Positions 3,035 to 17,064 of a DNA stretch of 31,979 nt are shown one piece after another; within the stretch, counting starts at the first letter, position 1, and every line of letters begins with the position of its first letter. This stretch comes from Actinomycetota bacterium (GTDB lineage: Bacteria; Actinomycetota; CADDZG01; WHSQ01): assembly GCA_046262955.1 (NCBI GenBank), contig JBHELU010000284.1, forward strand, positions 1-31,979. Direction: 5' to 3'. The notes beneath the pieces were generated by a model, which searched no databases, was not told where the DNA came from, and worked only from the letters and a program-made list of their open reading frames with translations. Position numbers and translations under genes: made by a program.

Positions 3035-3093
3035 CTTGGCTTTGGCGTAGGCCCAACCTCGGAACCATATTCTTCCAGCGTCACGCCTCGCAG

Positions 3094-4074: not shown

Positions 4075-4082
4075 GGCCGTGG

Positions 4083-4088
4083 AGTTTA
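4083..4088 (-). promoter_or_regulatory. Putative -10 element (TAAACT) for a near-leaderless GT2 transcript
   Basis: TANNNT hexamer ends 8 nt before ATG 4074, and no SD sequence lies in between. Confidence 0.4.
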
Positions 4089-4121
4089 GAGAACGGCGGC
4101 CCTACCTGGTATGAGTTTGTC

Positions 4122-4817
4122 GTGATCTCACCGTGGACGCGGCCCGTGACGCTCGTCTATCACGGCGTCAATCAGGTAACCGACGCCGAGGATCCTTCGC
4201 GACTTGTCGTTTCGCCGGACCATCTGCATTCTCAGCTGATGTGGTTGAAAGACCGGGGCTACAGATTCGAGACTGCTACCCAGCTAGCGCAACGTGATGC
4301 CCCGGCCCTCAAGATCGCGACGGTTACCTTCGACGACGGCTGGGCCGACACTCTAGATACGGTCGCTCTGCTTAGGGACTGGGATGTGGTGGCGACCTTC
4401 TTCGTGTGCCCCGGCCTATGGGGGTCGCAGCATCCGGATGTCGCGGGGCCGGCAGGTGCTCTCTTGACAAGGGAGCAAGCAACTGAGCTTGCCTCGACCG
4501 GGATCGACCTTGGATCGCACTCGATGAGCCATCCCGATCTCACAAAGCTGGACGACGATCGACTTGCCTACGAGCTGGCGACCTCCAAAGCGCAGATCGA
4601 AGATCTCTCGGGCCGAGAGTGCCCGACGCTCGCTTATCCCTTCGGTCTCTACGACGACCGCGTGAGCGCGGCCGCTCAGGCAGCGGGCTACCGGCTCGCC
4701 TTCGCGTGGTTACCCGGTCCCTGGAAATCCTTCGCCGCTCCTCGACTTCCTGGCCCCCCCCGCCACGGCTCGTCCCGGCTGGCGCTCAAGATGATGGGAC
4801 TGAGACGCCGGACCTAA
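4122..4817 (+). CDS. Polysaccharide deacetylase (CE4/NodB-like)
   Basis: LVYHGV, VTFDDG, GSHSMSHPDL (metal-binding His pair) and LAYPFG. No signal peptide evident. Confidence 0.9.
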   Translation: MISPWTRPVTLVYHGVNQVTDAEDPSRLVVSPDHLHSQLMWLKDRGYRFETATQLAQRDAPALKIATVTFDDGWADTLDTVALLRDWDVVATFFVCPGLWGSQHPDVAGPAGALLTREQATELASTGIDLGSHSMSHPDLTKLDDDRLAYELATSKAQIEDLSGRECPTLAYPFGLYDDRVSAAAQAAGYRLAFAWLPGPWKSFAAPRLPGPPRHGSSRLALKMMGLRRRT

Positions 4818-5947
4818 CGTCTGACGAGCTGCTTGATCCGGCGTTTGACACCCGGCGGAAGCTTGCCGGCGAGCGAGCCTCGTCCACGCGCCGCGAGCAG
4901 CGCCGCGCGCGCGGCAGCGGACGTGGGGCCGGGAGGAACAACCGCCCACCACTCCAACGTGTCTTCGCCGTCCGTGAAACGCAACTTGTACGACTGGCTG
5001 CCGCCGCCGAGGTCGACGCGCCGGTCGCCGCGAGCGAACGACTCTTGGATCGCCGCAAGGATCGCGATGATCGAGGGCCGGTACGCACGCCACGCTTCGT
5101 CGAACCCACCGAGCCAGTAGGTCACTTCACCACCGCTGGACAAGAACGCTTGCGAGCTGATGATCCTGTCGCCGACTTTGATCGTCCACAACCGCAGTCG
5201 TTTCGTACCTTCATCGCTGTTGACTATGTCGAGCAGCATCCGCTCAACGCGTGTCGACATCACGGCTGATCCACCGCGTGAGGCCCAGCGCTGTTCGTGC
5301 AGGTTTCGAAGCGCGGCAACAGCGTTGCGAAGATCGTCTTCACCCGAGGCTCGATCTAGCACCGCGCCCTGCTCTGCAAGTTGTCGTTGTGTACGCCGCA
5401 TCTGCTGACGGAAGTTGCGCGTCCGCGCCGCGAACCACTCGTCGTACGTCCCACTGATCGAGAGCGTTGGTGAACCCATCGAATCGACTTGCGCGAGCTT
5501 CGGTGTTTCGGCAGTGGGCCATTGCATGCGGAACCCACGCGGCCACGGTGATCCCGATGGGATCCCCTCGAGCCGGATCAGTGCCGGGAACGGGCGGAGC
5601 TCGGCCAGTTTCCTAACTACCTCACCGACGAACTCCTCTTCACGTTCCGCACTTGCAAGGGGCTCGGCACGCGGAGAGGTCGACGCCCCAAGGATGCGAT
5701 AGGTCCACAGACCTGCGGCATTCCGCTGCGCGAAGAATGGAGCGATCCCGCACATCCGCCCGCGTTCGTCGAAACCGGCCACGAACCGAGGTTGCGCGGC
5801 GGAGGGTGCGACCTGGCGCCACCACGACAACATCCACACCGGCGACGAATAGGGTCGGCCTCGCTCGCTCGCAAGAGCGTCCCACTCGTCCTGTATCCGA
5901 TCGAGCGTGGTCGGATCGCCAAAAACCTCGAGCTTCACGTCGTGCAA
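4814..5947 (-). CDS. GNAT-family acyltransferase, CelD/BcsL (Acetyltransf_6) type
   Basis: EWDAL...PYSSPVWMLSWW, FAARTRNFRQQMRR, YWLGGFD and RVDLGGGSQSYKLRF. Start is TTG 5947 or GTG 5938; an in-frame TAG lies immediately upstream of 5947. Confidence 0.85.
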   Translation of the reverse strand: MHDVKLEVFGDPTTLDRIQDEWDALASERGRPYSSPVWMLSWWRQVAPSAAQPRFVAGFDERGRMCGIAPFFAQRNAAGLWTYRILGASTSPRAEPLASAEREEEFVGEVVRKLAELRPFPALIRLEGIPSGSPWPRGFRMQWPTAETPKLAQVDSMGSPTLSISGTYDEWFAARTRNFRQQMRRTQRQLAEQGAVLDRASGEDDLRNAVAALRNLHEQRWASRGGSAVMSTRVERMLLDIVNSDEGTKRLRLWTIKVGDRIISSQAFLSSGGEVTYWLGGFDEAWRAYRPSIIAILAAIQESFARGDRRVDLGGGSQSYKLRFTDGEDTLEWWAVVPPGPTSAAARAALLAARGRGSLAGKLPPGVKRRIKQLVRR

Positions 5948-5956
5948 CTATGCAGC

Positions 5957-6724
5957 ATGAGCGGCCGGCGGCTCGACCCGTTGATCCTTGCGATGCATGC
6001 AGTCGAATACGTCCCCGTGCGAGACGACCCAAACAGGCTCTTCATCGCGCCCCGCACGTTGTCGTCGCTCGTCGACCGGCTTAAGGACAAGGGTTACACG
6101 TTCGTCACGTTCGGCGACATGGCCCGGGCGGTCGCGCTCGGCGAATCTGCCGGACTGGTGTCGCTGACCTTCGATGACGGTTATCGAAACAATCTCTACG
6201 AATTGGTACCGATCGTGCAGGGCCGCGGCGTCGTTGCGACCGTGTTCGTAGCAACCGGATTGCTCACAAAGATGCATCCCGATCCTCCCAGCCGGCCGAT
6301 GCTTACGCTCGATGAAGTGGCAGTCCTGCACGGCGAGGGTGTCGAGATCGGTTGTCACACCAACACCCACCGAGATCTCACCCGGCTCGACGCATCTGAA
6401 GTGACGGATGAGTTGAGCACCAGCAAAGAAGCGCTCGAGGACGTCACCCAGGCCCCCGTCGAAGGCCTCGCGTATCCCTTCGGCGACGCGAACAAGGAAA
6501 CGATCTCGCTGGCGAAGAAAGCAGGGTTCCTTGCTGCATGCCGGACATCGGGCCGCGGATCTTGGAGCGACCTTCACGACCTTCCCAGGCAAGACGTCGG
6601 AAATCATCCATCGGCCGTGGGCCTGGAGCTGAAGCGTCGCGACCTGTACGAGCCCTTGATGCGGTTCCTTCCTGCGCGGGTCGCGCGGCGCGTCTACTAC
6701 GGCGTGCAGAAGAAAGTGTTGTGA
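5957..6724 (+). CDS. Polysaccharide deacetylase (CE4/NodB-like)
   Basis: ILAMHAV, LTFDDGY, GCHTNTHRDL and LAYPFG. Start moved to ATG 5957 because the longer ORF from 5792 overlaps the GNAT gene on the other strand. Confidence 0.9.
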   Translation: MSGRRLDPLILAMHAVEYVPVRDDPNRLFIAPRTLSSLVDRLKDKGYTFVTFGDMARAVALGESAGLVSLTFDDGYRNNLYELVPIVQGRGVVATVFVATGLLTKMHPDPPSRPMLTLDEVAVLHGEGVEIGCHTNTHRDLTRLDASEVTDELSTSKEALEDVTQAPVEGLAYPFGDANKETISLAKKAGFLAACRTSGRGSWSDLHDLPRQDVGNHPSAVGLELKRRDLYEPLMRFLPARVARRVYYGVQKKVL

Positions 6725-7839
6725 GCGCGATCCCAATCACGTTCGTGTCCTCACATAGCGCGAACGGAGGATCAGAGAGGTATCTGCGTCGGTTGATCAC
6801 CGAATTGGGATCGGATTGGGTGAAAGACATCATCTGTCTTCAAGATGGGTGGCTGGCCGAAACACTGCGCGCGGATGGACGCGACGTGACCGTGATCGAC
6901 ATGCCCACGCGCCCCCCAGGTTTGCTGACACGGTCGATGGCGCTTCGTCGCCATTTGCGATCGACGTCAGCCACTCTGGTACACGCGAACGGGATCAAAG
7001 CTGCGTTCGCATGCGGCATCGCAACGATGGGGACGCGGATCAAGGTTGTCTGGGTCAAGCACGACTTCAGCTTCGAAGGAGCTTTCGCGAGCGCGGTGGG
7101 GGCGGCCGTGGACAGAACGGTCGGTGTCAGCAAAGCGTCGATCTCGCAACTACGCGGGCCGGCAGTGCGCAAGGCAACTTACGTTCACACCGGGATCGAC
7201 CATGTTCCAGCCGATCGATCCGTCGCGCGCCGCGCTCTGCTCGAGCAAATGAGATGGCCCGACGATTCATTCGTCATCGGAGCAGTCGGCCGGCTCGATC
7301 CCACGAAAGGTTTCGCCGAGCTCATCCGAGCTGCGGCGATCGTTCGTACAACGCAGCCTGCGACTCGCGTCGTCGTCGCCGGGAGCCCCGATCCACACCA
7401 TCCGCAAACACGCAGCGAATTGGAAAGGATCGCTCGCGATCTCGGTCTCGCGGACAAGGTGACGATCCTCGGGGAACAAAAGGACGTCCGATCCCTGATG
7501 GCGGCATTCGATTTAGGAGTGATCCCGACGGTCGCAACGCGGCGGGGGGGCCGCGAAGGTTTCTCGCTGGTCGCACTCGAGATGCTCGATGCGGGGACCC
7601 CCGTCGTCGCATTCGAGAGCGGCGCCCTGCCCGAGGTGCTGGGCCCCTGCGGCATCCTCGTGACCGAAGGAAGTGTCGACGCTCTGGCGGCAGCAATCCG
7701 ATCGGTAGCGGAAGATAAAGCGCTGGGCGCCGGCCTCACCGATTGCGGTCGAGATCGAGTCGCCAGTTTCTCGACCACTCGGTGGATCGATGAGATGAAA
7801 AGGGAGTACGGATCGGTGAAGGAGAGCCCCGCTCGATGA
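6721..7839 (+). CDS. Glycosyltransferase family 4 (GT-B)
   Basis: GGSERY, VGRLDPTKG and REGFSLVALEMLDAGTPVV (EX7E). GTG 6721 overlaps the upstream stop (GTGA). Confidence 0.92.
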   Translation: MSAIPITFVSSHSANGGSERYLRRLITELGSDWVKDIICLQDGWLAETLRADGRDVTVIDMPTRPPGLLTRSMALRRHLRSTSATLVHANGIKAAFACGIATMGTRIKVVWVKHDFSFEGAFASAVGAAVDRTVGVSKASISQLRGPAVRKATYVHTGIDHVPADRSVARRALLEQMRWPDDSFVIGAVGRLDPTKGFAELIRAAAIVRTTQPATRVVVAGSPDPHHPQTRSELERIARDLGLADKVTILGEQKDVRSLMAAFDLGVIPTVATRRGGREGFSLVALEMLDAGTPVVAFESGALPEVLGPCGILVTEGSVDALAAAIRSVAEDKALGAGLTDCGRDRVASFSTTRWIDEMKREYGSVKESPAR

Positions 7840-9329
7840 GCTTGTTCGAAGGCTCGGAAGCTCGTCTGCCTATCCTGAGGCCCATCTCCGACGGAGCCCG
7901 GCCACGCTGGCTTGCCGCTCTTGGATATGCGGCCCTCGCGGCGATCGCCGGTCTTGCCGGCGTGCTGCTGACCGCAGTTGCCTCGAGAGCGGACAACGCG
8001 GCCCCCATCGCGCTGCTGGCTCTCGTGCTCGGCCCCCTGCTGATCGCGGCGGTCGTGGTCGACCCGCGGATCGGGATCGTGTGCATCTTCCTTTCGTTCC
8101 CCGCGGGGTTCAGAGGCATCGAGCTGGGTGTGTTCAATCTTCAGGCAACCGATGCAGCGGTACTGCTGGTCGCGGTTGTGGTGGCGCTGCGCCGTATCGG
8201 AACGGGCTCGGCGCCGTTGTCCTGGTCCGCTCCTCTTGTATGGGCGGTCGGCATGATCGGGTGGGCGATCGTTGCAACTCCCTCGGCTGCCGACAAAACC
8301 CTGGCGGTGAAGCAGCTCGGTTACCTGATCGACGACGTGGTCCTCGCGTGTCTCGTCCTTGCTGCGTTCAAGTCGGCTCGCGACCTGCGCGTCATTCTCT
8401 CGGCCCTAGTGATCGTTTCGGTTGCCATAACGATCCAGGCCTTGACCAGCATCCACGAGCTCACGTCCTTCTACAGCGGCGCCGTAGTCAGTGGCCGCGC
8501 CGCCGGTCTCTTCCAGGAGCCCAACCAGCTCGGCGACTTCTGCGCGATGACGGCGTTGCTAACCGCCGGGATGGCTCTCGGCGCCAAAACCCGATGGGGC
8601 ACGATCACCTTGGTCGGTGCTTTTGGAGTGCTCGTCACCGGCCTTACTTTGTCCCTATCGAGGGGTGCGTGGATAGCGGCGGTTCCGGGAGTCGTCTTAC
8701 TTGCGCTTCTCTTGAAGAGCGCGCGCCGCACGATCGCGGTGCTTGCGATCCCCATCTTGATCATGGCGTTCTCGGTAGGTGCGTTCGCGCCGAGCCATCC
8801 GGACGTGCGCGTGATCGGCGAACGTTTCCACTCGCTGACGACTTTGAATCAGCCATACGACGATCGACTGGCGATCTGGCGTGAAGCGATCCGGGAAACA
8901 CGAAACGATCCGTGGACGGGGGTCGGCCCCGGAAACTTCGCAGTCGCAAGTCAGCGGTCGACGTCGCTTGCGTTCACCGCTTTCGCTCCGCACGCACACA
9001 ACATCTTCCTGAACACCGCTGCCGAGATGGGCTTGCCGGGCGTCGCTTTCCTGGTTGCACTGATCGTGGCCCTTGCGTTCGCTGGTCGAACTGCGCTAAA
9101 AGCCATGCGCAAGACCCGTCGATCGCGGGAGCTCGCGCTGACCGCCGGAATATGCGCTGCACTATTCGCCACGCTCATCCAGGGACTCACCAACACGTTC
9201 ACAGGCAACTCGATCATCGACGGCACCATTTGGACGCTGATCGGGGCACTGCTTGTGGCCCGGCGCGAGGCGCGCACGATGGTTGAAGAGCAAGCCGCGG
9301 CTCCCACGGAGGCTCCCGCGACAGCATGA
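7836..9329 (+). CDS. O-antigen ligase / Wzy-like polymerase family membrane protein
   Basis: About 12 hydrophobic segments with GRAAGLFQEPNQLG, LSLSRGAW, RLAIW, WTGVGPGNF and HAHNIFLNTAAEMGLPG (Wzy_C-type motifs). ATGA overlaps at both ends. Confidence 0.88.
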   Translation: MSLFEGSEARLPILRPISDGARPRWLAALGYAALAAIAGLAGVLLTAVASRADNAAPIALLALVLGPLLIAAVVVDPRIGIVCIFLSFPAGFRGIELGVFNLQATDAAVLLVAVVVALRRIGTGSAPLSWSAPLVWAVGMIGWAIVATPSAADKTLAVKQLGYLIDDVVLACLVLAAFKSARDLRVILSALVIVSVAITIQALTSIHELTSFYSGAVVSGRAAGLFQEPNQLGDFCAMTALLTAGMALGAKTRWGTITLVGAFGVLVTGLTLSLSRGAWIAAVPGVVLLALLLKSARRTIAVLAIPILIMAFSVGAFAPSHPDVRVIGERFHSLTTLNQPYDDRLAIWREAIRETRNDPWTGVGPGNFAVASQRSTSLAFTAFAPHAHNIFLNTAAEMGLPGVAFLVALIVALAFAGRTALKAMRKTRRSRELALTAGICAALFATLIQGLTNTFTGNSIIDGTIWTLIGALLVARREARTMVEEQAAAPTEAPATA

Positions 9330-10372
9330 CCGCCTCGATATCGGTGATCGTCCCGGTCCTCAACGAGGAGAAATCGATCGCCTCTCTGCTCGACGCGTTG
9401 ACGGATCAATTGCTCGCGGGCGACGAGGTCGTTGTTGTCGACGGGGGATCCACGGACGGTACGGCGACCATCGCAGCGCAAAAGGGTGACCCGGTTCGTG
9501 TGTTGTCGGCGCCGGGAACGAATATCTCGCAAGCTCGAAACGCGGGCGTTCTTGCAGCGGCCAACGACGTGATCGCGTGCACCGATGCAGGTTGCTCTCC
9601 GGGCTCGATGTGGCTCGACTCTCTGCGTAGCTGCGTCACGAGCGAACCGGCACCCGACTTGGTTACGGGCATCTACGAGGTCTCTGCCGGCACACCTTTC
9701 GAAGCGGCCATGGCTGCCGCTTGTTATCCCGATCCGGATGCGCGTCAACCGTCGGGGTGGGCCTCCGTTTACGGCCGGCTCTTCGGACGGACGTTCGACT
9801 CGGCCTTTCCCACGGGTCGCTCGATGGCCTTTACGAAACGCGCGTGGTCACGCGTCGGCGGATTCCCAGAAGATCTCGAGACTGCGGAAGACGTGACGTT
9901 TGGACGCTCGATCGCGCAAGCCGGGCTCGGGGCCGTGCTGTGTCCCGAAGCCCGCGTCGTGTGGAGACAGCGGCCGACCTTTGGTTCCACGGCGCGCATG
10001 TATTTCCGCTACGGATCGGGCGGAGGCCGTTCGCAAGACGCGAAGGTCATCTCGAGAGACGTGATCAGAGCCGCTGCCTACGGTCTCGGTGTGTGGGGTC
10101 TGGTTGCCGGCGGCAACGTAATGCGAGCGGCAATAGCTTTGGGTGCAGCGGTTTACTTATCGGTGCCGCTGGCCAGGGCCGCTCGGGGCCCCCATGGTGC
10201 CGCCGCCGTGCCGCTGGTTCCGGTCGCACTCGCTACGAAGGATCTGTCGAAGGCTGCCGGTTGTTTGATCGGTTTGTCTAGTAGACGGGAGCGATCACAC
10301 CCGGTGCAGCGTGACATCATCGACGACGAACGAGCGGCCCCTTCGGATCGGAGCCTTGATCCGAAGCACTAG
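9326..10372 (+). CDS. Glycosyltransferase family 2
   Basis: ISVIVPVLNEE, VVDGGSTDGT, NISQARNAG, IACTDAG and GGFPEDLETAED. Confidence 0.92.
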   Translation: MTASISVIVPVLNEEKSIASLLDALTDQLLAGDEVVVVDGGSTDGTATIAAQKGDPVRVLSAPGTNISQARNAGVLAAANDVIACTDAGCSPGSMWLDSLRSCVTSEPAPDLVTGIYEVSAGTPFEAAMAAACYPDPDARQPSGWASVYGRLFGRTFDSAFPTGRSMAFTKRAWSRVGGFPEDLETAEDVTFGRSIAQAGLGAVLCPEARVVWRQRPTFGSTARMYFRYGSGGGRSQDAKVISRDVIRAAAYGLGVWGLVAGGNVMRAAIALGAAVYLSVPLARAARGPHGAAAVPLVPVALATKDLSKAAGCLIGLSSRRERSHPVQRDIIDDERAAPSDRSLDPKH

Positions 10373-12007
10373 ATGACTGTGAGCCGCTCCGTGAGAGCGG
10401 TAGTAGATCTGAGGCATCTCGTTCCACGCTCCAGCTGCGACTCGCTTCATCACGACCTGGCGACCCAACTTTCGTCCATGAGACCACTCGACGATGACGA
10501 ACCGGATCCGCTCCACTCGATCGGTCAAGACGTACCCGGATGCGGTCAGCCACTTGCGATGACTGCCCACCTGTACGCGACGGGCCGCAAGGCTCGCTCG
10601 CGAGCCGTTGCTGCCAACACGACCGGCATCAGAGCCTGAGTGCGCTGTGTGCACCACGGTGAGGTAACCCGAAGGCGTGTCCCACCCGCGTGTGCCCGAC
10701 TCGAAACCACCGTTCACGAGCAGGTTCGGCTCCGAAGGAGGTGTCGTGCTGGGCGAGGGATCCGGCGTAGGTGTGTCGATCGCGCTGGGCGACGGATCGG
10801 GAGCCGGCGTGTCGCTGGCGCTCGGGTCCGGGGACGGCTGCTCGCTCGGTGTGTCGCTGGGGCTCGGTACCGGGTCCGGAGTCGATGCCGACGGTGATGG
10901 ATCCGGTGTCGATGCCGACGGAGACGGGTCCGGGGCCGGCGCTTGCGTCAGGAGATCCTTCAGTGCCGTGTATGCGGGTTTCGGCGAGTCGTCCTGCGTG
11001 AGGATCCCGTAGTTGTCCAGCTGGGCATCGCCGGAGCTCTCGTCGTTGGATTCGTAAGCGATCAAGTTGGTGACGTAAGGCATGTTCTGCTGCACGTACT
11101 TCACGCTGTTCACGAGGAAATCTGCCTGCTCCTGCCGAGTCACACCGATGTTCCAGTTGGATTCGTTCCCAGTGTTCGAGTGCGTCGACCATCCGAACTC
11201 GGTGAACCAGATAGGCGTGTCGCCGTCGCCTCGGTTCGCCATCAGCTGATGGACCTGCGCGGCGTAGGGGAAGCTCCAGATGTTGTTGTTGTCGACCGAT
11301 GGGCCGATGTTCGAGGGGGCCGTGTATGGATGCGTCGCCATGACGTCGAACGAGCCTTTGACTCCGGCGCCGTAACAGTTGCGGATCCAATTGATGTCGT
11401 TGTACGAGGGCCCGCCGAACACGACTTGTGTCGTTGGATCACCCGCCTTGAATGCCGGGTAGGCGAGCTTTAAGAGCCGGACGTAGTCGGCTGCATTCCC
11501 CGACCAGAACGACTGGAGGTTGGGCTCGTTCCATACCTCCCACGCATTCACGCGGCCTGCGAAGTGATGCGCGGCCCACTGGGCTGCGGCGGCGTAGTCG
11601 GCCGGATCGGTCGGAGGCACACTCGCAGCGGTTCGCCACCCCACACCCGTGAGCCCATTCGCCCACGCGGGGGTGCACCACATCGTCATGAGCACCTTCA
11701 GACCGGCCGCCCGAGCTTCGTCGACGGCTTGGTCGGCATTGTCGATGAACCACTGGCTGTACTGACCGCGGGCATCCTCTTGAAGGGAGCACCAACCGAA
11801 GTCCATCCGGACCCAAGTGACGCCCGCTGCTGCCAGCTTGTCGAAGATCACCTTGCGCTCGGCGTCGGAGAACTCCCAGAGAGCATGCACCTGGACGCCA
11901 AAGGCGGGAAGGGGTCGGGTAGCTGCGACCGCGGGGTGGGATGCAGCCAGGCCGACGGCTGAGGTCGAGACGATGGTGAGTGCTGCGAATAGACGCTTGA
12001 ACTTCAA
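10295..12007 (-). CDS. Secreted clan GH-A glycoside hydrolase (GH5/GH39-like) with Pro/Ser/Thr linker and C-terminal CBM4/9-like domain
   Basis: TTG start with GGGAG RBS 6 nt upstream, signal peptide ending PAVA, acid/base motif WEVWNEP, nucleophile motif PIWFTEFGW, ATHPY, PKPAY, then NLLVNGGFE...VVDDVTL (carbohydrate-binding module pattern). Confidence 0.88.
   Translation of the reverse strand: MKFKRLFAALTIVSTSAVGLAASHPAVAATRPLPAFGVQVHALWEFSDAERKVIFDKLAAAGVTWVRMDFGWCSLQEDARGQYSQWFIDNADQAVDEARAAGLKVLMTMWCTPAWANGLTGVGWRTAASVPPTDPADYAAAAQWAAHHFAGRVNAWEVWNEPNLQSFWSGNAADYVRLLKLAYPAFKAGDPTTQVVFGGPSYNDINWIRNCYGAGVKGSFDVMATHPYTAPSNIGPSVDNNNIWSFPYAAQVHQLMANRGDGDTPIWFTEFGWSTHSNTGNESNWNIGVTRQEQADFLVNSVKYVQQNMPYVTNLIAYESNDESSGDAQLDNYGILTQDDSPKPAYTALKDLLTQAPAPDPSPSASTPDPSPSASTPDPVPSPSDTPSEQPSPDPSASDTPAPDPSPSAIDTPTPDPSPSTTPPSEPNLLVNGGFESGTRGWDTPSGYLTVVHTAHSGSDAGRVGSNGSRASLAARRVQVGSHRKWLTASGYVLTDRVERIRFVIVEWSHGRKLGRQVVMKRVAAGAWNEMPQIYYRSHGAAHSHLVLRIKAPIRRGRSFVVDDVTLHRV
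10728..10944 (-). repeat. Intragenic tandem repeats encoding the PDPSPS-rich linker of the hydrolase
   Basis: Two 27-nt units at 10875-10901 and 10902-10928 (4 mismatches) plus more degenerate copies; protein reads PDPSPSAST x2, PDPSASDTPA, PDPSPSAIDTPT. Confidence 0.8.
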
Positions 12008-12016
12008 AGAGGACTC

Positions 12017-12096
12017 CCAATTCGGTAGCTGGGCGACCCCCGTGGGGGCCCTGGCTTTGCGTCCCTGCGTTGCCGCAGGTTTGCCCTTGTCGTTGG
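12017..12096 (-). ncRNA. Cyclic di-GMP-I (GEMM-I) riboswitch aptamer upstream of the glycoside hydrolase
   Basis: Minus strand: CCAACGACAAGGGCAAACCUGCG-GCAA-CGCAGGGACGCAAAGCCAGGGCCCCCACGGGGGUCGCCCAGCUACCGAAUUGG. It has the GGGCAAACC and GGGACGCAAAGC hallmarks, a GNRA-capped P2 (CCUGCG/CGCAGG), a P3 stem, the CUACCG 3' strand, and G at the Vc2 G20-equivalent position. Confidence 0.9.
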
Positions 12097-12131
12097 TTCT
12101 TGTGAGTTATGAATCGGCCCCCTATGGGGAC

Positions 12132-12159
12132 CTCTTTAGCCTCAACCGAGGCTAAAGAG
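12132..12159. promoter_or_regulatory. Perfect 12-bp inverted repeat (candidate operator or hairpin) in the divergent hydrolase/wzc region
   Basis: CTCTTTAGCCTC-AACC-GAGGCTAAAGAG. Confidence 0.55.
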
Positions 12160-12285
12160 ATCGGCTCGAATCGGACAATCGGGTACACACCCGGCCGGGA
12201 GCCCTCCCGACACGCGATGATGCGGACTCCCCCGCGGGCTATGGGGACGCACGATCTGCATGACGTCTAGCTGAAATGAGGTGAA

Positions 12286-13569
12286 GTGGCGCAGGAATCG
12301 GGGTTGCCGGAGCTACTCGACACCCTTCGATGGCGGTGGCACGTGGTGGCGATCATCGCCGTAGCATTCCTTGTCGGCGCGATCGTCTATGCGCAGGGGC
12401 TTCCCCTCCAATACGAGGGCCAGACGATCACCACATTCGCACCTCGGCCCAATGTGGATTCGGGTGCGGCCACGCTCCTGCTGCCCAAGTACGCGGCGTA
12501 CGTAACCGCCCCCGCCACGATCCAGCAGATCGCCCCAGATGTAGGCGTCGGCGCGGGCACACTCGAGAAAGCGGTCAACGCCACAACCGCCACCGAGACC
12601 GCGAACCTGACGATCACGGTCACGCTGACGAACGCGGCCAAAGCTGCCGAAGCAGCCAACGCGTTCGCTCAGGCAGCCGTCGACTTCTCGGCGACCGACA
12701 AAGCCGTCGAGGGCGAGATCGTCGCCAAGGCGTTGACGCCAAACAAGCCGTCCGGCCCTCCGCGGAAGTTGATGGAGGCAGCGGCGCTCGCCGTCGGTCT
12801 CCTTCTGGGTATCGCCGTCGCGTTCGTGATCGAGCGGCAGCGGCCACGGCTCAGGACGTGGCAGGAGATCGCCAAAGTCACGGGTTACCCAGTCGTGGGT
12901 CGCGTTCCCCGCTCTCGCGCGCTCAGAGGCAAACCTCAAGATGCGCTGACCGACCCACGGGTAGGGGCCGCGTTCAGAACGCTGCGAACAAACCTCGAAC
13001 GTGAGTGGCAGGACCGAACGGTCGACATCATCGTCGTGACATCGCCGAGCTCGGGAGATGGCAAGACGACGATCGCCGCGTTGTTTGCCGAATCTCTCGC
13101 ACGGCTTGGTGGCAACACGCTTCTGATCGATGCCGACCTGCGACGTCCGGGCCTTTCCGGCAGCATCCTGGACGGCCAGGTCACGAAAGGCTTGGACGAC
13201 GTGCTGCGCGAGAAAGTGAAGCTCGAGCACGCGGTCAGGCCCGGGTGGACCGATCGGCTCACGATCTTGCCGACCAAAGCCGATCCCGATGCCGGGGACC
13301 TTCTTGCTCGCCGCTTCCAAGATGTGCTGCGGGAAGCGCGCGAGCGTTACGACATCATCGTGATCGACACTGCTCCGATATTGGGAACGGACGACGCGCG
13401 CACGATCGCAACGGTTGCGAACGGTTTGTTGCTTGTGATCTCGGCCCGGTCGTTCGCAGGGCCTGTGAACGAGTCGGTGCTTGCCCTCGAATCGTTGCGT
13501 GCACCGGTGCTCGGTGCGATCGGTAACCGTCTACGCGAATCGGGCCGGAGCTACTACTACTACACCTGA
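12286..13569 (+). CDS. Polysaccharide co-polymerase / tyrosine autokinase (fused Wzz-like and CpsD/CapB-like domains; Wzc-type)
   Basis: Two TM segments around a short extracytoplasmic domain; Walker A SPSSGDGKTT, A' LIDADLRRP, B IIVIDTAP; C-terminal tyrosine cluster RSYYYYT; GAGGTG RBS. Confidence 0.93.
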   Translation: MAQESGLPELLDTLRWRWHVVAIIAVAFLVGAIVYAQGLPLQYEGQTITTFAPRPNVDSGAATLLLPKYAAYVTAPATIQQIAPDVGVGAGTLEKAVNATTATETANLTITVTLTNAAKAAEAANAFAQAAVDFSATDKAVEGEIVAKALTPNKPSGPPRKLMEAAALAVGLLLGIAVAFVIERQRPRLRTWQEIAKVTGYPVVGRVPRSRALRGKPQDALTDPRVGAAFRTLRTNLEREWQDRTVDIIVVTSPSSGDGKTTIAALFAESLARLGGNTLLIDADLRRPGLSGSILDGQVTKGLDDVLREKVKLEHAVRPGWTDRLTILPTKADPDAGDLLARRFQDVLREARERYDIIVIDTAPILGTDDARTIATVANGLLLVISARSFAGPVNESVLALESLRAPVLGAIGNRLRESGRSYYYYT

Positions 13570-13594
13570 AAATTGTCGCCACGGCGCTCTGCGC

Positions 13595-13613
13595 TGGCGC
13601 TTCGCTAGCGCCA
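13595..13613. terminator. Possible hairpin between convergent wzc-like and GT4 genes
   Basis: TGGCGCT-TCGCT-AGCGCCA inverted repeat with no U-tract. Confidence 0.3.
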
Positions 13614-13675
13614 CAGCATGGCTCCGCCAAGTGCGGAATTGGGATTCCTAGTCGGCGACCCCACGAGCAATTTGG

Positions 13676-14797
13676 TCAGTGCGCTCCGGTTCGTCGATCC
13701 AGAACGTCGCGGTAGACCTGCGCGATTCGATCGGTCGTTGCTTTCACGTCGTGATGTTTCTCGATCGTCTGTCGGCCTCGAGCACCTTCAGCCGCGAGGA
13801 TCTGGCGGTTGCTGAGTCGGTCGGCGATCGCACGAGCAAGCGCTTCTCTGTCTTCGACCGGCACGACTTCTCCGCCACCTCGGCCTAGGACCTCGCGCAT
13901 CCCGGCGACGTCTGTCGCCACGACCGGACGCGCGGAAGCCATGGCCTCGAGCAGGACCAACGACATCCCTTCCCATCTCGACGGCAGCACAACGACGTCA
14001 CTTGCGGCGAGCCAGGTCGAAACGTCCTTTCGCTCGCCGACCATCTCGACGCCGTCCGGAAGATTCTGTTCGAGCGACTGACGATCCGGTCCGTCACCAA
14101 CCAGGTAGAGCCGCGCGTCCGTCACGATTGCTCGAACCCGAGGCCAGGCATCGATAAGGACGTCTTGACCTTTCTGGCGCGTGAAACGGCCCACGCATAT
14201 CGCTACCGGCTCGGTCCCGATACCCAACCCGAGGCGAGCGTTCGATGCATCCGTTGCCGTCGCAGGCTTCCACCGCATCAGGTCGACGCCATTGGGGACG
14301 ACGATCCAAGGCGCGCTGATACCGGCCGCGATCCCCTCGGCCCGCTCGATGTCGCCCACGCATATCAACGCGTCGGTCCACCGAGCCCCGCGTCGCTCCC
14401 ACCGCCGAGCCATAGCGGCTGTGGTGCCGCCGACCGCCCAGAACGACCACCCATGTGGCTGAAAGACTGTCGGTAAACGCCCACGCAGACCTAGCCGGCC
14501 GCACAGGCCAGCTTTAGACGAATGCAGATGGACCAGCTGAGGGTCGACATCTTTGAAGATGCTCGCTAGAGCGCGGGTCTCGCCGACGGTTGGAGGGCCG
14601 GGATATCGATCCGCTTCCCACGAGATGTGGGTAGCCCCTGCGTCAACCGCCGCATCGGCCAGCCACCCTACGCGCGGTGATGCCACCACGACAGTCATCC
14701 CGCGCGCAAGTTGATCTCGGACGAGCGTCTCGACCACCGTGGGGACGCCCGCTTCGGTGGGCTGGGAGACGTGCAGAACAGCGATCCGATCCTCCAT
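13676..14797 (-). CDS. Glycosyltransferase family 4 (GT-B)
   Basis: LHVSQPTEAGV, HLHSSKAG, VPNGVD, VGRFTRQKGQD and WEGMSLVLLEAMA. Start set at ATG 14797 to avoid overlap with the divergent gene. Confidence 0.92.
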   Translation of the reverse strand: MEDRIAVLHVSQPTEAGVPTVVETLVRDQLARGMTVVVASPRVGWLADAAVDAGATHISWEADRYPGPPTVGETRALASIFKDVDPQLVHLHSSKAGLCGRLGLRGRLPTVFQPHGWSFWAVGGTTAAMARRWERRGARWTDALICVGDIERAEGIAAGISAPWIVVPNGVDLMRWKPATATDASNARLGLGIGTEPVAICVGRFTRQKGQDVLIDAWPRVRAIVTDARLYLVGDGPDRQSLEQNLPDGVEMVGERKDVSTWLAASDVVVLPSRWEGMSLVLLEAMASARPVVATDVAGMREVLGRGGGEVVPVEDREALARAIADRLSNRQILAAEGARGRQTIEKHHDVKATTDRIAQVYRDVLDRRTGAH

Positions 14798-14805
14798 GAA
14801 GCCCG

Positions 14806-14812
14806 TAGGGTA
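14806..14812. promoter_or_regulatory. Symmetric bidirectional -10 element (TAGGGTA)
   Basis: + strand TAGGGT (14806-14811) and - strand TACCCT (14812-14807) both match TANNNT, and each ends 9 nt before its start codon (TTG 14821, ATG 14797). Confidence 0.6.
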
Positions 14813-14820
14813 AGGCGGCT

Positions 14821-16689
14821 TTGAAGCGCAAGTCGCTATTGCTCGCGGGGGGCATCTTTCTATCTGCGGTTGCCGGTGCAGCCGCTTTCGTTCTGTTTCC
14901 GGTAGCTCACGACCTCCAAGCCGCACGTGCCACCCTGACGACGAACGTCGCGGATCTGAAAGCCGGAGATATCGCGAACGCAGAAACTCGGTTGCGATCG
15001 GCTCACGACCGCCTCAACAGTTTGCCCGGGCATTTCTTGCACCTCATCCCTCTCCTGGGAGCCAATCTCGACGCCGTCGATCGCGTTGTCGTCGCGGCGG
15101 AACCGGTGCTAACCGCGGCGGAAGATCTGAAGCGGACGAGCAACCGGGCTTTGGGGAACGGGCTCTTCGCGAACGGTCGCATCGACCCGCAGGCGATCCA
15201 GGCGCTCGACGATCCCCTAGGTGCGGAGGTTGCGTCCTTGGGTCGGCTGAGCGCAGCGGCAGAGGACGCCCGAGGTGGGTGGCTGCTCCCCCCCGTATGG
15301 TCGGCGATCACCGACATCATGGACAAGGCCTCGAGCTTGCACGCCGATGCCGGTCGAGCCGCCGCAGCGCTCCAACAAACCCCGAGCCTGCTGGGCACGG
15401 TGACCCCTCGGACCTACCTGGTGATGCTCATCAACAACGCCGAGCTCCGCGGCGGGGGTGGGGTGCTGTCCGGCATCGGGACGCTCACGGTGAACGACGG
15501 GCACCTGAAGCTGGGCCGCTTCTACACGCGGGAGGCGCTCGTGAGGCACCCCTACAAGCAGGTCCCGGCCCCAGCGGACTACGAGCGCAGGTTCGGCATC
15601 TTCGAAGCCAACACCACTCTGTGGATCAACTCTACCTACTCGCCGGACTTCCCCGACGATGCTCTCGTGGCCGCCCGGCTCCTGAAGCTAGAAACGGGAG
15701 TGAAAACGCAAGGGGCGTTGGCCTTGGACCCCCGGGGGCTCGCGGCGCTCATGCCTCAGAACTCGAGCGTCAAGGTTCCGGGTCTCGACGGCCGGGTGAC
15801 CAGGGAAGGCCTTCCCGGATTCGTGTACTCCGAGGCCTACAAGCTGTTCGACACTCAGGCCCAACGACGTAAGGCGATCCTGGCGGCCGGAAGCCAGGCT
15901 TTCGACCAGGTGCTCAACGGCTCGTTCGACGGCACCGACACGCTCGCCGAGCTCGGCCCTCAGATCACCGGAGGTCACATCCGGGTCATCTCGTTCGATC
16001 CCCACCAGGAGCAAGTCCTGGACGCCGCGGGAGCCAGCGGGAAATTGCGTCACCCGGTCGGAGACGAGCTGTTCGTGACGATCGACAACTTGGGCACCCA
16101 CCAACTCGGCTTCGGAACGAAGCTCGACTTTTGGGCGCACCGTCACGTGACGCACCACTGCGACATCGTCCAGGACCAAGCGTCGTGTTCGACGTTCGTG
16201 TCGATCCAGAACACTGCGCCCAAAGGTCTGTCGCGTTACGTTGCAGGACGTCCTTACGCGTTGATGAGGGACTACGTCCAGGTTTACATCCCCGACGACG
16301 CGACCGTGGAGATCGTGAATCTGGATGGGAACAACGCGCCGGATCTGATCGAGAAACAGGACGGCTCGATGTCGATCGGCGTTCCCGTCAACATCAAGCG
16401 CGGCGACGAACGCACGGTGCAAGTGAACTACTCGATCCCGCTAACCGAGAACCGCTACACGCTGACCGCTGTCCCGCAACCTCTTACGGCCGATGCCCGA
16501 CTCGATCTGTCGTTGTCGATGCCCCAGGACTGGAGGGTGGAGTCGGACTCGAACGACAAGGCCGGCGCGTTCAGCATGTCGGGCCCCTTCGACGGACGGA
16601 TCACCATCAACGCAAAACCGAGCGATGAGACAGGCATCTCTCGAGCGTGGTCGGCGATCCTCCGCTTCTGGAGGAACCCGGTCTTCTAA
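14821..16689 (+). CDS. DUF4012 domain-containing membrane-anchored protein (possibly LCP-like)
   Basis: N-terminal TM anchor, helical region, then family-like motifs YLVMLINNAELRGGGG, NSTYSPDFP and GALALDP. Confidence 0.82.
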   Translation: MKRKSLLLAGGIFLSAVAGAAAFVLFPVAHDLQAARATLTTNVADLKAGDIANAETRLRSAHDRLNSLPGHFLHLIPLLGANLDAVDRVVVAAEPVLTAAEDLKRTSNRALGNGLFANGRIDPQAIQALDDPLGAEVASLGRLSAAAEDARGGWLLPPVWSAITDIMDKASSLHADAGRAAAALQQTPSLLGTVTPRTYLVMLINNAELRGGGGVLSGIGTLTVNDGHLKLGRFYTREALVRHPYKQVPAPADYERRFGIFEANTTLWINSTYSPDFPDDALVAARLLKLETGVKTQGALALDPRGLAALMPQNSSVKVPGLDGRVTREGLPGFVYSEAYKLFDTQAQRRKAILAAGSQAFDQVLNGSFDGTDTLAELGPQITGGHIRVISFDPHQEQVLDAAGASGKLRHPVGDELFVTIDNLGTHQLGFGTKLDFWAHRHVTHHCDIVQDQASCSTFVSIQNTAPKGLSRYVAGRPYALMRDYVQVYIPDDATVEIVNLDGNNAPDLIEKQDGSMSIGVPVNIKRGDERTVQVNYSIPLTENRYTLTAVPQPLTADARLDLSLSMPQDWRVESDSNDKAGAFSMSGPFDGRITINAKPSDETGISRAWSAILRFWRNPVF

Positions 16690-17060
16690 GACTCTTGCTT
16701 ACGCGTCCTCGTTCGCCGAACGATCACGAATCCGATACCGATGGCCGCCAGGCCGGTCAGCACGAACAACGTCACGTCCGCACCGGTGAACGGCAGGACC
16801 TGCTTGTGCAGCACCGTAGGCGTCGGCGAAGGTGGTTCAACCGTCGTCGTCGTCGCGCTGTGGTGCGGCGGAGACGTCGTGAATCGCGTCGGGCTGATGG
16901 TTTTGCACTTGTGCGTGTAAGGGTCACAGATCCTTTTCGCCGAAGCCGATCCGGCGAAGAGCATCATCGACCCGAGAATTCCGACCACGCACAACGCCAT
17001 CAGCGCCAGCGTCCCGCGAGCGATCCTGCGCTTTCTCCTCTGTGAAGCAGACATCATCAC
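16686..17060 (-). CDS. Small secreted LPXTG-type (LPFTG) cell-wall-anchored protein
   Basis: AGGAGG RBS (start GTG 17060, ATG 17057 or ATG 17054), signal peptide ending ASA, S/T/P-rich stalk, then LPFTG, a hydrophobic helix and a basic tail RRTRTRK. Confidence 0.85.
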   Translation of the reverse strand: MMMSASQRRKRRIARGTLALMALCVVGILGSMMLFAGSASAKRICDPYTHKCKTISPTRFTTSPPHHSATTTTVEPPSPTPTVLHKQVLPFTGADVTLFVLTGLAAIGIGFVIVRRTRTRKQES

Positions 17061-17064
17061 CCTC

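What the first reader, a model, noticed from the sequence alone, without database searches (positions are those of the whole stretch)
10295..12096. c-di-GMP-I riboswitch whose P1 stem overlaps the RBS of a secreted glycan hydrolase inside the biosynthetic locus
Seen: a full GEMM-I aptamer ends 9 nt before the TTG start. P1 can pair CCAA (12096-12093) with UUGG (12020-12017), which includes the first two G of the GGGAG RBS (12018-12014). G20-type pocket, GCAA tetraloop, and a P3 without the CCUAA 11-nt receptor, an architecture also seen in Geobacter cGAMP-sensing variants. Established: ligand stabilises P1; GH39 PslG-type enzymes cleave their own exopolysaccharide; these riboswitches are best known from Firmicutes and Proteobacteria. 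Inference: a translational OFF switch that releases a matrix-degrading enzyme when c-di-GMP falls (dispersal switch).
Basis: partly seen in the sequence, partly recalled or inferred. Interest (0 to 1): 0.8.

Follow-up and report, generated by a model that had tools for sequence, protein, structure and literature searches.

The report
c-di-GMP riboswitch gating matrix hydrolase
A genuine, standard-pocket c-di-GMP-sensing RNA sits right against the ribosome-binding site of a secreted PslG-like sugar-polymer hydrolase inside a capsule/slime gene cluster of an uncultured actinobacterium, behind a promoter type that c-di-GMP also controls, so the enzyme is probably made only when c-di-GMP is low.

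Summary
Window 12020-12094 (-) is a class I c-di-GMP riboswitch aptamer: RF01051 60.1 bits (cut-off 35) and RF03167 62.5 bits (cut-off 59). It keeps the canonical pocket (G20/A47/C92 equivalents at 12085/12058/12025). It outscores on the 'GGC variant' model only because it lacks the tetraloop receptor, and it is not a GGC or cGAMP variant. The Shine-Dalgarno GGGAG starts 2 nt after the aptamer, and CCAA (12096-12093) can extend P1 onto UUGG. This aptamer-abuts-SD design recurs in 30 of 34 riboswitches of the family, and 5'/3' flank complementarity exceeds all controls. The gene encodes a secreted GH39 enzyme whose closest solved relative is PslG. Both catalytic Glu are kept, and it lies mid-way in a Wzx/Wzy-type polysaccharide locus. 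New here: a sigma-WhiG/FliA-type promoter (TAAA-N16-GCCGATTC, 12138-12111) lies just upstream. The same motif precedes 21/34 family riboswitches and 14/23 in other Actinomycetota families (about 0.5 expected), and the genome encodes a twin-motif RsiG. Best reading: two c-di-GMP checks of the same sign, transcription and translation, with a translational OFF switch. The riboswitch is a new member of a known class. This scan had already noted WhiG-promoter-plus-GEMM-I wiring in other genomes. OFF polarity and a dispersal role remain inferences.

The parts
12135..12138 (-). -35 element TAAA (within CTAAAG) of a sigma-WhiG/FliA-type promoter
   Evidence: Sequence. It matches the published WhiG2 query T(A/C)AA-N16-GCCGA (bioRxiv 10.64898/2026.01.14.699351; PMC8325347). 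It is conserved in both same-genus orthologues. The position-specific profile over 27 loci is.
12111..12118 (-). -10 element GCCGATTC of the sigma-WhiG/FliA-type promoter, 16 nt after TAAA and 24 nt before the aptamer. The predicted transcription start is about 12104-12100.
   Evidence: GCCGA[AT] lies at -40..-15 in 23/34 family loci, against 1.0 expected; the full motif is in 21/34 and 14/23 loci, against 0 on the opposite strand and about 0.5 in shuffles. The transcription start is inferred, not measured.
12093..12096 (-). 5' strand of the P1 extension (CCAA), which can pair with UUGG 12020-12017
   Evidence: Sequence. With core P1 enforced, the minimum-energy fold forms this extension.
12020..12094 (-). 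c-di-GMP-I (GEMM-I, type 2) aptamer. Core P1 is 12092-12091 with 12024-12023. The P2 GCAA loop is at 12073-12070. Pocket equivalents are G20 = 12085, A47 = 12058 and C92 = 12025. The interhelical C/G equivalents are 12061 and 12034.
   Evidence: Rfam hits, and the RF01051 consensus. Covariation on 67 actinobacterial aptamers gives 98.4% paired cells, compensatory changes in 14/18 pairs, and 0/500 shuffles as high.
12014..12018 (-). Shine-Dalgarno GGGAG. Its first two G (12018, 12017) lie in the P1 extension.
   Evidence: Sequence. An SD-like tetramer lies within 9 nt of the aptamer end in 30/34 family riboswitches.
12005..12007 (-). TTG start codon of the hydrolase
   Evidence: It is the first start in frame. 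Orthologues have GTG at the aligned position followed by KFKR.
10295..12007 (-). Secreted GH39 (PslG-like) glycoside hydrolase, 570 aa. It has an N-terminal signal-peptide-like segment and a (beta/alpha)8 domain at about aa 34-355, with catalytic Glu161 (11527-11525) and Glu270 (11200-11198). A Pro/Ser/Asp-rich disordered linker spans about aa 356-445. A C-terminal beta-sandwich spans about aa 446-570 (10298-10672).
   Evidence: Pfam. PDB sequence search and alignment to PslG. Invariant columns N160, E161 and E270 in 34 homologues. AlphaFold model, pLDDT 79. The Foldseek top hits are PslG 5bx9, 4zn2 and 9g17. The signal peptide is read from the sequence only.
12132..12159 (.). Perfect 12-bp inverted repeat with a 4-nt loop. 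Its promoter-proximal arm contains the -35 CTAAAG. Its role is unknown.
   Evidence: Sequence. It is not conserved as a palindrome in the two same-genus orthologues.

Best explanation
This is a canonical-pocket class I c-di-GMP riboswitch of the receptor-less 'type 2' GEMM architecture, at the 5' end of the mRNA for a secreted PslG-like GH39 hydrolase encoded in the middle of a Wzy-type polysaccharide locus of an uncultured Actinomycetota bacterium. Transcription most likely starts about 8-10 nt before the aptamer, from a sigma-WhiG/FliA-type promoter. In Actinomycetota, RsiG sequesters sigma-WhiG when c-di-GMP is high. The aptamer's 3' P1 strand runs straight into the Shine-Dalgarno sequence. 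When c-di-GMP binds and locks P1, a short extension (CCAA with UUGG) plus the compact folded aptamer 12 nt from the start codon hinder 30S binding, which makes a translational OFF switch. High c-di-GMP would therefore block the enzyme twice, with no transcription and no translation. Falling c-di-GMP would release both blocks, and the hydrolase would be secreted, probably to cut the locus's own polymer. Shown: the aptamer, its pocket, covariation, the geometry, the promoter motif and its enrichment, RsiG in the genome, and enzyme family, catalytic residues and synteny. Inferred: ligand binding, OFF polarity, the transcription start, sigma-WhiG dependence, the substrate, and the physiological role.
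For: The aptamer passes both Rfam models. A47-type ACGCAAAGC and C92-type UACCG match the RF01051 consensus, not RF03167's ACGCGAA. PMC4744006 names G20/A47/C92 as the ligand contacts. Structure is supported by covariation. The aptamer-then-SD design occurs in 30/34 family riboswitches and in all six hydrolase orthologues that carry the aptamer, spanning 5 genera. The mean 5'-flank/3'-flank duplex energy is -5.78 kcal/mol, against -4.69 for permuted partners (sd 0.27, best -5.46), -4.33 for shuffled flanks and -3.45 for far-upstream controls. With core P1 enforced, the extension into the SD is part of the minimum-energy fold in most of the nine loci folded. The promoter is TAAA-N16-GCCGATTC. 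The motif is found in 21/34 and 14/23 loci, against 0 on the opposite strand and 0.5/0.36 in shuffles, and in 3 of the 4 riboswitch loci of this genome. RsiG: Pfam PF22802 at 4e-24 with two E-x3-S-x2-R-x3-Q-x3-D motifs, and PDB 6pfj_T at 1e-16. A WhiG sigma with the c-di-GMP/RsiG contact residues is present in 33/33 near-complete family genomes. The genome has at least 7 GGDEF genes. For the enzyme; for the locus and its synteny.
Against: This locus's own P1 extension is only 4 bp and covers 2 of the 5 SD bases. The unconstrained fold does not recover the aptamer and is not unusually stable (z -1.13). The 3' strand of P3 (CCCAG) can also pair with UUGGG, and that pairing appears in the minimum-energy fold. 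No bona fide WhiG gene is in this 81%-complete assembly; its one WhiG-like sigma (216 aa) lacks the K57/G61/R62 and RsiG-contact residues. Genome-wide, the promoter motif is barely enriched (57 observed against about 36 expected), so the evidence is positional only. The loci compared are related, so the statistics overstate independence. No RNA data could be found. PslG-type enzymes also serve in polymer biosynthesis (PMC9075953 abstract), and that role would not obviously call for an OFF switch.
Confidence: 0.62

Rival explanations
1. The aptamer is the same but the polarity is opposite (an ON switch). Without ligand, the SD would be masked by the 3' strand of P3 (CCCAG 12033-12029 with UUGGG 12020-12016), and ligand-driven folding of P3/P1 would free it. 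Combined with a WhiG promoter, this gives an incoherent circuit: mRNA is made at low c-di-GMP and translated only when c-di-GMP rises, for example at attachment. That would fit a PslG-like role in polymer synthesis.
For: The CCCAG/UUGGG hairpin appears in the unconstrained minimum-energy fold and in the terminator-like scan. In many family members the match is a perfect CCCAG/CUGGG, and one lineage shows CCCGG/CCGGG, a possible compensatory change. PslG has an intracellular, biosynthesis-linked role (PMC9075953).
Against: The 5-bp hairpin would have to displace a GC-rich P3 of 10 or more pairs. P2 and P3 of GEMM-I are preformed without ligand (own knowledge, Vc2 structural studies). Where the SD directly abuts the aptamer (CCGAAA|GGAG), only 2-3 G-C pairs remain for this hairpin. 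The bound state would still tie up the same G residues in the P1 extension. Only one putative covariation event was seen.
Confidence: 0.12
2. The riboswitch is functional but acts mainly through mRNA fate, such as Rho-dependent termination or RNase access that follows from blocked translation, or through transcription, rather than through direct SD occlusion. The 4-bp extension would be incidental.
For: The window's own extension is weak (-3.6 kcal/mol). A few family riboswitches (L022, L025, L030, L032) use a different platform with no adjacent SD, so the lineage has more than one mechanism.
Against: There is no intrinsic terminator between the aptamer and the start. Only 12 nt separate them, and the one terminator-like hit is not conserved in orthologues. 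SD adjacency is conserved in 30/34 loci. Flank complementarity is beyond all controls.
Confidence: 0.12
3. Regulation is as in the best explanation, but the enzyme is not a dispersal factor. It would be a processing or quality-control hydrolase of the export machinery, or a scavenging enzyme for foreign glycans (it carries a long linker and a C-terminal beta-sandwich, like secreted CAZymes), and its place in the locus would reflect co-inheritance only.
For: The hydrolase sits next to BY-kinase, Wzy and GT4 homologues in 20 or more loci across Actinomycetota, mostly without a riboswitch, as expected of a core biosynthetic component. The C-terminal domain is not identified (CBM_4_9 only at E 0.08). 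The other riboswitch-controlled genes are a mixed secretome: CAP, EEP, DUF3048 and RTX proteins.
Against: A Sec-type leader and a linker-tethered extra domain suit an extracellular enzyme. PslG added from outside disperses Psl biofilms (abstracts). Co-control with a secreted EEP-family protein, a possible nuclease, and with a low-c-di-GMP sigma factor fits matrix turnover. None of this is decisive.
Confidence: 0.3

Closest known systems
c-di-GMP-I (GEMM-I) riboswitch, Rfam RF01051; type examples Vibrio cholerae Vc2 (tfoY leader) and Vc1
   Same: It has the same three-helix junction, the G20/A47/C92 pocket, the interhelical C-G pair and a GNRA loop on P2. The score is 60.1 bits against a cut-off of 35.
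   Different: P3 is short and lacks the 11-nt tetraloop receptor, and the loop is GCAA (the 'type 2' form). The SD lies directly behind P1, rather than in a distant expression platform or a terminator.
c-di-GMP-I-GGC variant, Rfam RF03167
   Same: It is the best-scoring Rfam model for this and almost all aptamers of the family (62.5 bits against a cut-off of 59). Both have the short, receptor-less P3.
   Different: The model's defining ACGCGAA (G at the A47 position) and UGC before P1 read ACGCAAA and UAC here, which is the canonical pocket. That 'GGC' stands for positions 20/47/92 is my reading of the consensus. The defining paper (Weinberg 2017, PNAS) was not held.
RsiG-(c-di-GMP)-sigma-WhiG switch and WhiG2 target promoters of Actinomycetota (PMC7005675, PMC8325347, bioRxiv 10.64898/2026.01.14.699351)
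   Same: The promoter is an exact match to the published query T(A/C)AA-N16-GCCGA and lies within 200 nt of a start codon. The genome encodes a twin-motif RsiG.
   Different: Those papers do not mention riboswitches among the targets ('riboswitch' occurs 0 times in the 2026 preprint). Here the WhiG-type promoter drives an mRNA that itself senses c-di-GMP.
PslG of Pseudomonas aeruginosa (GH39; PDB 4zn2, 5bx9, 9g17)
   Same: It is the best sequence and fold match. The WNEPN acid/base and TE(F/W)GW nucleophile motifs align. Both are encoded inside a polysaccharide biosynthesis cluster.
   Different: Identity is about 25%. Here there is a Sec-type leader, a disordered Pro/Ser/Asp linker of about 90 residues and a separate C-terminal beta-sandwich. 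The host is Gram-positive-type. The substrate is unknown.
Clostridioides difficile c-di-GMP-I OFF riboswitch on zmpI, the secreted protease that releases c-di-GMP-induced adhesins (own knowledge: Soutourina 2013; Peltier 2015; not checked here)
   Same: The logic is the same: a class I c-di-GMP OFF switch on a secreted enzyme that dismantles surface or matrix components made at high c-di-GMP.
   Different: There the switch works through a transcription terminator, the enzyme is a protease rather than a glycanase, and no c-di-GMP-controlled sigma factor is involved.

Membership tests
c-di-GMP-I riboswitch (RF01051) | Covariance-model score above the curated gathering score | tested here: met
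   60.1 bits against 35, E 2e-11
c-di-GMP-I riboswitch (RF01051) | Ligand-contacting nucleotides G20, A47 and C92 (Vc2 numbering) | tested here: met
   G 12085, A 12058 and C 12025, by alignment to the Rfam consensus. The contacts are as named in PMC4744006.
c-di-GMP-I riboswitch (RF01051) | P2 and P3 helices maintained by compensatory change | tested here: met
   67 actinobacterial aptamers: 98.4% of cells paired, 14/18 pairs with changes on both sides, 0/500 shuffles as high, slid controls 0.035-0.076 against 0.475. The alignment was fitted to the model, which favours the structure.
c-di-GMP-I riboswitch (RF01051) | GNRA tetraloop docking into an 11-nt receptor in P3 (type 1 only) | tested here: not met
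   The GCAA loop is present. The receptor CUAAG...UAUG of the consensus is deleted. The family also includes receptor-less type 2 members (own knowledge), so this does not exclude membership.
c-di-GMP-I riboswitch (RF01051) | Selective binding of c-di-GMP | not testable with these tools
   Needs in-line probing, ITC or equilibrium dialysis
c-di-GMP-I-GGC variant (RF03167) | Score above the gathering score | tested here: met
   62.5 bits against 59
c-di-GMP-I-GGC variant (RF03167) | G in place of A47 (consensus ACGCGAA) | tested here: not met
   The window and all ten aligned family aptamers read ACGCAAAGC or GCGCAAAGC. It is therefore not filed as a GGC variant.
c-AMP-GMP (GEMM-Ib) riboswitch | A at position 20 | tested here: not met
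   G at 12085, and this column is invariant in alignment A1
GH39 / PslG-like glycoside hydrolase | Family profile match, with the nearest solved relative in GH39 | tested here: met
   PF01229 at 40.5 bits against 26. PslG at E 4.6e-26, followed by GH39 enzymes. The Foldseek top three hits are PslG. GH5 also matches at 38.6 bits, so the clan GH-A assignment is firm and the family assignment rests on the PDB ranking.
GH39 / PslG-like glycoside hydrolase | Catalytic acid/base Glu (NEP motif) and nucleophile Glu | tested here: met
   E161 in WNEPN and E270 in FTEFGW align with PslG's WNEPN and STEWGW. Both are invariant in 34 homologues.
GH39 / PslG-like glycoside hydrolase | Endo-cleavage of the cluster's own exopolysaccharide | not testable with these tools
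   Needs an enzyme assay on the native polymer
sigma-WhiG (WhiG2) target promoter | -35 T(A/C)AA, 16-nt spacer, -10 GCCGA, within 200 nt of a start codon | tested here: met
   TAAA 12138-12135, N16, GCCGATTC 12118-12111, 104 nt before TTG.
sigma-WhiG (WhiG2) target promoter | A cognate WhiG sigma and RsiG encoded in the genome | tested here: inconclusive
   RsiG is present with a twin motif. No above-threshold WhiG is in this 81%-complete assembly, but one is present in 33/33 family genomes that are at least 95% complete, with the contact residues kept.
sigma-WhiG (WhiG2) target promoter | A transcription start appropriately placed downstream of the -10 | not testable with these tools
   No sequencing run was listed for this DNA

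The most novel reading that the evidence does not exclude
Across Actinomycetota, class I c-di-GMP riboswitches are mostly wired behind sigma-WhiG-type promoters, giving a phylum-wide two-tier c-di-GMP lock. RsiG would hold the sigma factor, and the riboswitch would silence mRNA already made. Together they would control a secretome of matrix-remodelling proteins (PslG-like glycanase, EEP-family enzyme, CAP-domain proteins) that is released when c-di-GMP falls.
Probability: 0.4. Interest if true: 0.7.

Novelty: new member of a known kind. Interest (0 to 1): 0.48.

Why it matters
The RNA itself is an ordinary class I c-di-GMP riboswitch. What would matter is the wiring. c-di-GMP receptors known in Actinomycetota are proteins (BldD, RsiG-WhiG, GlgX), and the published WhiG regulon predictions do not mention riboswitches. 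If mRNAs made by sigma-WhiG also sense c-di-GMP directly, the same signal is read twice with the same sign. That would sharpen and speed the shut-off of a secreted matrix hydrolase, and would give a concrete, testable dispersal module in abundant uncultured soil and freshwater actinobacteria. It also gives a practical annotation caution: Rfam assigns these aptamers to the 'GGC variant', whose ligand is unsettled, although their pocket is canonical.

Tried and rejected
(1) GGC-variant or cGAMP-variant identity was rejected on the pocket nucleotides.

(2) The defining paper for the Rfam variants could not be read.

(3) The unconstrained MFE fold recovers only P2 and is not significant (z -1.13), so it was not used as evidence.

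(4) An intrinsic terminator was considered. The single terminator-like hit (12033-12016 plus a T-rich tail) is the P3/SD hairpin. It is not conserved in orthologues and leaves no room before the start codon, so it was rejected.

(5) A sigma-70-type promoter scan of 11950-12350 found none.

(6) The genome-wide count of the WhiG motif is 57 against about 36 expected, which is not convincing alone. Only the positional association counts.

(7) The 216-aa WhiG-like sigma on contig C3 was considered as RsiG's partner. Its contact residues are not conserved, so this is not claimed. The best TIGR02479 hit, on C104, is a SigB/F/G-type sigma next to an RsbW-like gene.

(8) For public RNA or DNA runs covering 11500-12600, none was listed, so there is no transcription-start evidence.

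(9) Pfam on the C-terminal 146 aa gave only sub-threshold CBM_4_9 (E 0.08), so the domain is left unnamed.

(10) SD unpaired probabilities from constrained partition functions were uninformative, because ligand energy is not modelled.

(11) Flagellin was not found in this 81%-complete assembly, so no link to motility is claimed.

(12) No complex prediction was run, because no protein-protein binding claim is made.


Full report
**Observation**

It scores 62.5 bits on RF03167, the c-di-GMP-I-GGC model, whose cut-off is 59 (E 1e-12). A lower-scoring hit of the same clan was suppressed. Searching the window's own genome with RF01051 shows that this was the canonical c-di-GMP-I model, at 60.1 bits against a cut-off of 35.

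The ORF 10295-12007 (-) starts with TTG 12 nt after the aptamer. GGGAG lies at 12018-12014. CCAA 12096-12093 is complementary to UUGG 12020-12017. The two same-genus orthologues have GTG at the aligned position followed by the same K-F-K-R, which fixes the start.

**Which c-di-GMP-I class?**

All four aptamers in this genome, and nearly all in the family, score slightly better on RF03167. The RF03167 consensus reads ACGCGAA at the P2/P3 junction and UGC before the 3' P1 strand. The RF01051 consensus reads GACGCAAAgC and carries the receptor motif CUAAgg...cuAuG in P3. The window reads ACGCAAAGC and CUACCG and has no receptor.

So the pocket is canonical:
- The G20 equivalent is 12085.
- The A47 equivalent is 12058.
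- The C92 equivalent is 12025. PMC4744006 names these three as the ligand contacts.
- The interhelical C/G equivalents are 12061 and 12034.

The small RF03167 advantage comes from the short, receptor-less P3 that both share. I therefore file it as a c-di-GMP-I riboswitch of the receptor-less type with a GCAA loop. It is not a GGC variant, and it is not a cGAMP (A20) variant. That 'GGC' denotes positions 20/47/92 is my reading of the consensus, because the defining paper was not held.

On 67 aptamers from Actinomycetota aligned to my own model, 98.4% of cells pair and 14 of 18 pairs show compensatory change. No shuffle of 500 reaches the observed values, and slid partners collapse. That alignment was fitted to the model.

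**Lineage**

The window is contig C284 of a 2.12-Mb, 321-contig MAG that is 81% complete. Its nearest public relatives are uncultured 'Actinomycetota bacterium' MAGs. RF01051 matches 82 of 86 genomes of its GTDB family, with 1-7 hits each. It also matches 65 of 151 genomes sampled across the phylum. The riboswitch class is therefore common here, not exotic.

Some of the family genomes are unpublished: G049, G048, G068, G041, G028, G047, G040, G035, G034, G039, G024, G023, G036, G073 and G037. The family tallies include them, and so do loci L009, L018, L023/L039, L025, L026, L036, L042 and L047. Public-only counts are given where I computed them. L036 has a public twin in L052.

**Expression platform**

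In the six hydrolase orthologues that carry the aptamer (5 genera), and in the other three riboswitches of this genome, the aptamer's CCGAAN is followed at once by GGAG, GGGAG or GGAGG. A start codon follows 5-9 nt later. Over the family, 30 of 34 riboswitches have an SD-like tetramer within 9 nt, or 25 of 29 in public genomes.

The 5' flank is C-rich and complementary to the linker plus SD. The mean duplex energy is -5.78 kcal/mol. The controls are weaker:
- -4.69 when flanks are permuted between loci (sd 0.27; best of 200 is -5.46).
- -4.33 for shuffled 5' flanks.
- -3.45 for a far-upstream segment.

When only the 2-bp core P1 is enforced, the minimum-energy fold continues P1 into the SD in most of the nine loci folded, including the window. 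For the window itself the extension is only CCAA/UUGG, at -3.6 kcal/mol. The argument for OFF therefore rests on the conserved design and on the steric closeness of a folded aptamer 12 nt from the start codon, not on this helix alone.

The rival pairing is CCCAG (the 3' strand of P3) with UUGGG. It appears in the unconstrained fold and in the terminator-like scan, and it shows one possible compensatory change in another genus. To form, it would have to displace a much stronger P3.

The three same-genus loci conserve GGCTAAAG...GGGGCCGATTCATAA just upstream of the aptamer. This is TAAA (12138-12135), 16 nt, then GCCGATTC (12118-12111). It is an exact match to the published sigma-WhiG2 query T(A/C)AA-N16-GCCGA and to the flagellar consensus TAAA / GCCGATAA.

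GCCGA[AT] lies 15-40 nt before the aptamer in 23 of 34 family loci, against 1.0 expected. The aligned sites give cT[AC]AAGg-N14-GCCGA[TA]. By the published criterion with N15-17, counts for the 90 nt upstream of the aptamer are:

| Set of loci | With motif | Opposite strand, same stretches | Dinucleotide shuffles, mean (max) |
|---|---|---|---|
| This family | 21 of 34 (18 of 29 public) | 0 | 0.5 (4) |
| Other Actinomycetota families | 14 of 23 | 0 | 0.36 (3) |

All five genera whose hydrolase has the riboswitch also have the motif. Ten of 51 riboswitch-less hydrolase loci have it as well, against 0.9 expected. Genome-wide the motif is barely enriched (57 against about 36), so the evidence is positional. 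A start about 7-10 nt after the -10 would leave a leader that still contains the CC of the P1 extension.

**Sigma and anti-sigma factors**

The genome encodes a twin-motif RsiG on contig C97. It has two E-x3-S-x2-R-x3-Q-x3-D motifs, a Pfam RsiG hit at 4e-24, and a match to PDB 6pfj chain T at 1e-16.

A bona fide WhiG is not in this incomplete assembly. The 216-aa WhiG-like sigma on C3 lacks the c-di-GMP and RsiG contact residues. However, every one of the 33 family genomes that are at least 95% complete has exactly one above-threshold FliA/WhiG sigma. The example I aligned matches S. venezuelae WhiG at 1e-98 and keeps K57, G61, R62, T235, L236, Y239, E240 and L242. At least seven GGDEF genes are present.

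By the established model, RsiG with c-di-GMP sequesters WhiG (PMC7005675, PMC8325347). These promoters should therefore fire at low c-di-GMP, the same sign as an OFF riboswitch.

**The enzyme and its locus**

Pfam gives GH39 and GH5, both above their cut-offs. The best solved relative by sequence is PslG, E 4.6e-26. The WNEPN and TE(F/W)GW catalytic motifs align, and both Glu are invariant in 34 homologues.

An AlphaFold model (pLDDT 79) shows three parts:
- a confident (beta/alpha)8 barrel at residues 34-355;
- a disordered Pro/Ser/Asp linker;
- a beta-sandwich at residues 448-569.

Its top three Foldseek hits are PslG structures. The N-terminus looks like a Sec signal peptide, read from sequence only.

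The locus spans about 1637-18489. It holds an LMW-PTP, DUF4388, two GT2, a deacetylase, a GNAT/FemAB-like protein, two GT4, Wzy_C, a Wzz/P-loop kinase-like protein, DUF4012 and a priming transferase. Housekeeping genes lie beyond it. The hydrolase keeps BY-kinase, Wzy and GT4 neighbours in 20 or more loci across Actinomycetota, but only about 10 of 78 species-level homologue loci carry the aptamer.

**Regulon**

The other three riboswitches of this genome precede three secreted proteins: an Exo_endo_phos-family protein, a DUF3048 protein and a CAP-domain protein. In the family, CAP-domain proteins, an RTX-repeat protein and many unnamed small secreted proteins recur.

**Verdict**

The riboswitch is an ordinary member of a known class in a phylum where it is common.

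Earlier notes of this scan had already reported GEMM-I riboswitches behind sigma-28/WhiG-type promoters, and masking of the ribosome site by the mRNA 5' end, in other actinobacterial genomes. I found both here before reading those notes. They agree with my results but are not independent proof. I found no paper in the held library that links WhiG promoters with c-di-GMP riboswitches, or PslG-type enzymes with such riboswitches.

Noticed in passing
window 12132-12159: A perfect 12-bp inverted repeat with a 4-nt loop (CTCTTTAGCCTC GGTT GAGGCTAAAGAG) lies in the divergent intergenic region. Its arm nearest the hydrolase gene contains the -35 CTAAAG. It is not a palindrome in the two same-genus orthologues. 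It could be a regulator site or chance.
   Followed up: partly
L129:3951-4937 (-), L130:877-1992 (-), L001:1600-2037 (+) (own genome contigs C41, C277, C262): The genome's three other c-di-GMP-I riboswitches precede secreted proteins: an Exo_endo_phos (EEP) family protein, a DUF3048 protein and a CAP/SCP-domain protein. The CAP and DUF3048 loci have a WhiG-type motif at promoter distance from the aptamer. The EEP locus has only a relaxed match about 60 nt upstream.
   Followed up: partly
loci L141-L167 (other Actinomycetota families): 14 of 23 c-di-GMP-I aptamers sampled outside the window's family also have a T(A/C)AA-N15-17-xCCGA/GxCGA motif within 90 nt upstream, usually 30-60 nt before the aptamer. 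The promoter-riboswitch pairing therefore looks phylum-wide.
   Followed up: partly
L139:4330-4869 (-) (own genome contig C97): This is a twin-motif RsiG anti-sigma gene, with two E-x3-S-x2-R-x3-Q-x3-D motifs about 100 residues apart.
   Followed up: yes
L134:1177-1827 (-) (own genome contig C3, next to a 444-aa primary-type sigma): A short (216 aa) FliA/WhiG-like sigma has S. venezuelae WhiG as its best match. It scores below the family cut-off, lacks region 3, and lacks the K57/G61/R62 and RsiG-contact residues. It may be a distinct sigma-28 offshoot.
   Followed up: partly
L022 (two copies), L025, L030, L032: A subgroup of family riboswitches has P1 GCAG/CUGC and a conserved downstream stretch (CAGGGACGGUCC...GGGCCG) instead of an adjacent SD, and no ORF start within 60 nt. 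This is a different, unexamined expression platform.
   Followed up: no
L123:2846-2924 and 4572-4650: Two near-identical copies of riboswitch plus gene lie in tandem in an uncultured actinobacterium. The first gene is a GH5/cellulase-like homologue of the hydrolase.
   Followed up: no
L045 (own genome contig C106:805-1836): A paralogue of the hydrolase (39% identity) has no aptamer upstream. The search reported one in-frame TAG in its matched stretch.
   Followed up: no
window 1637-3121 (-): An LMW phosphotyrosine phosphatase ORF (1637-2659) and a DUF4388 ORF (2660-3121) abut in the same orientation at the edge of the locus.
   Followed up: no
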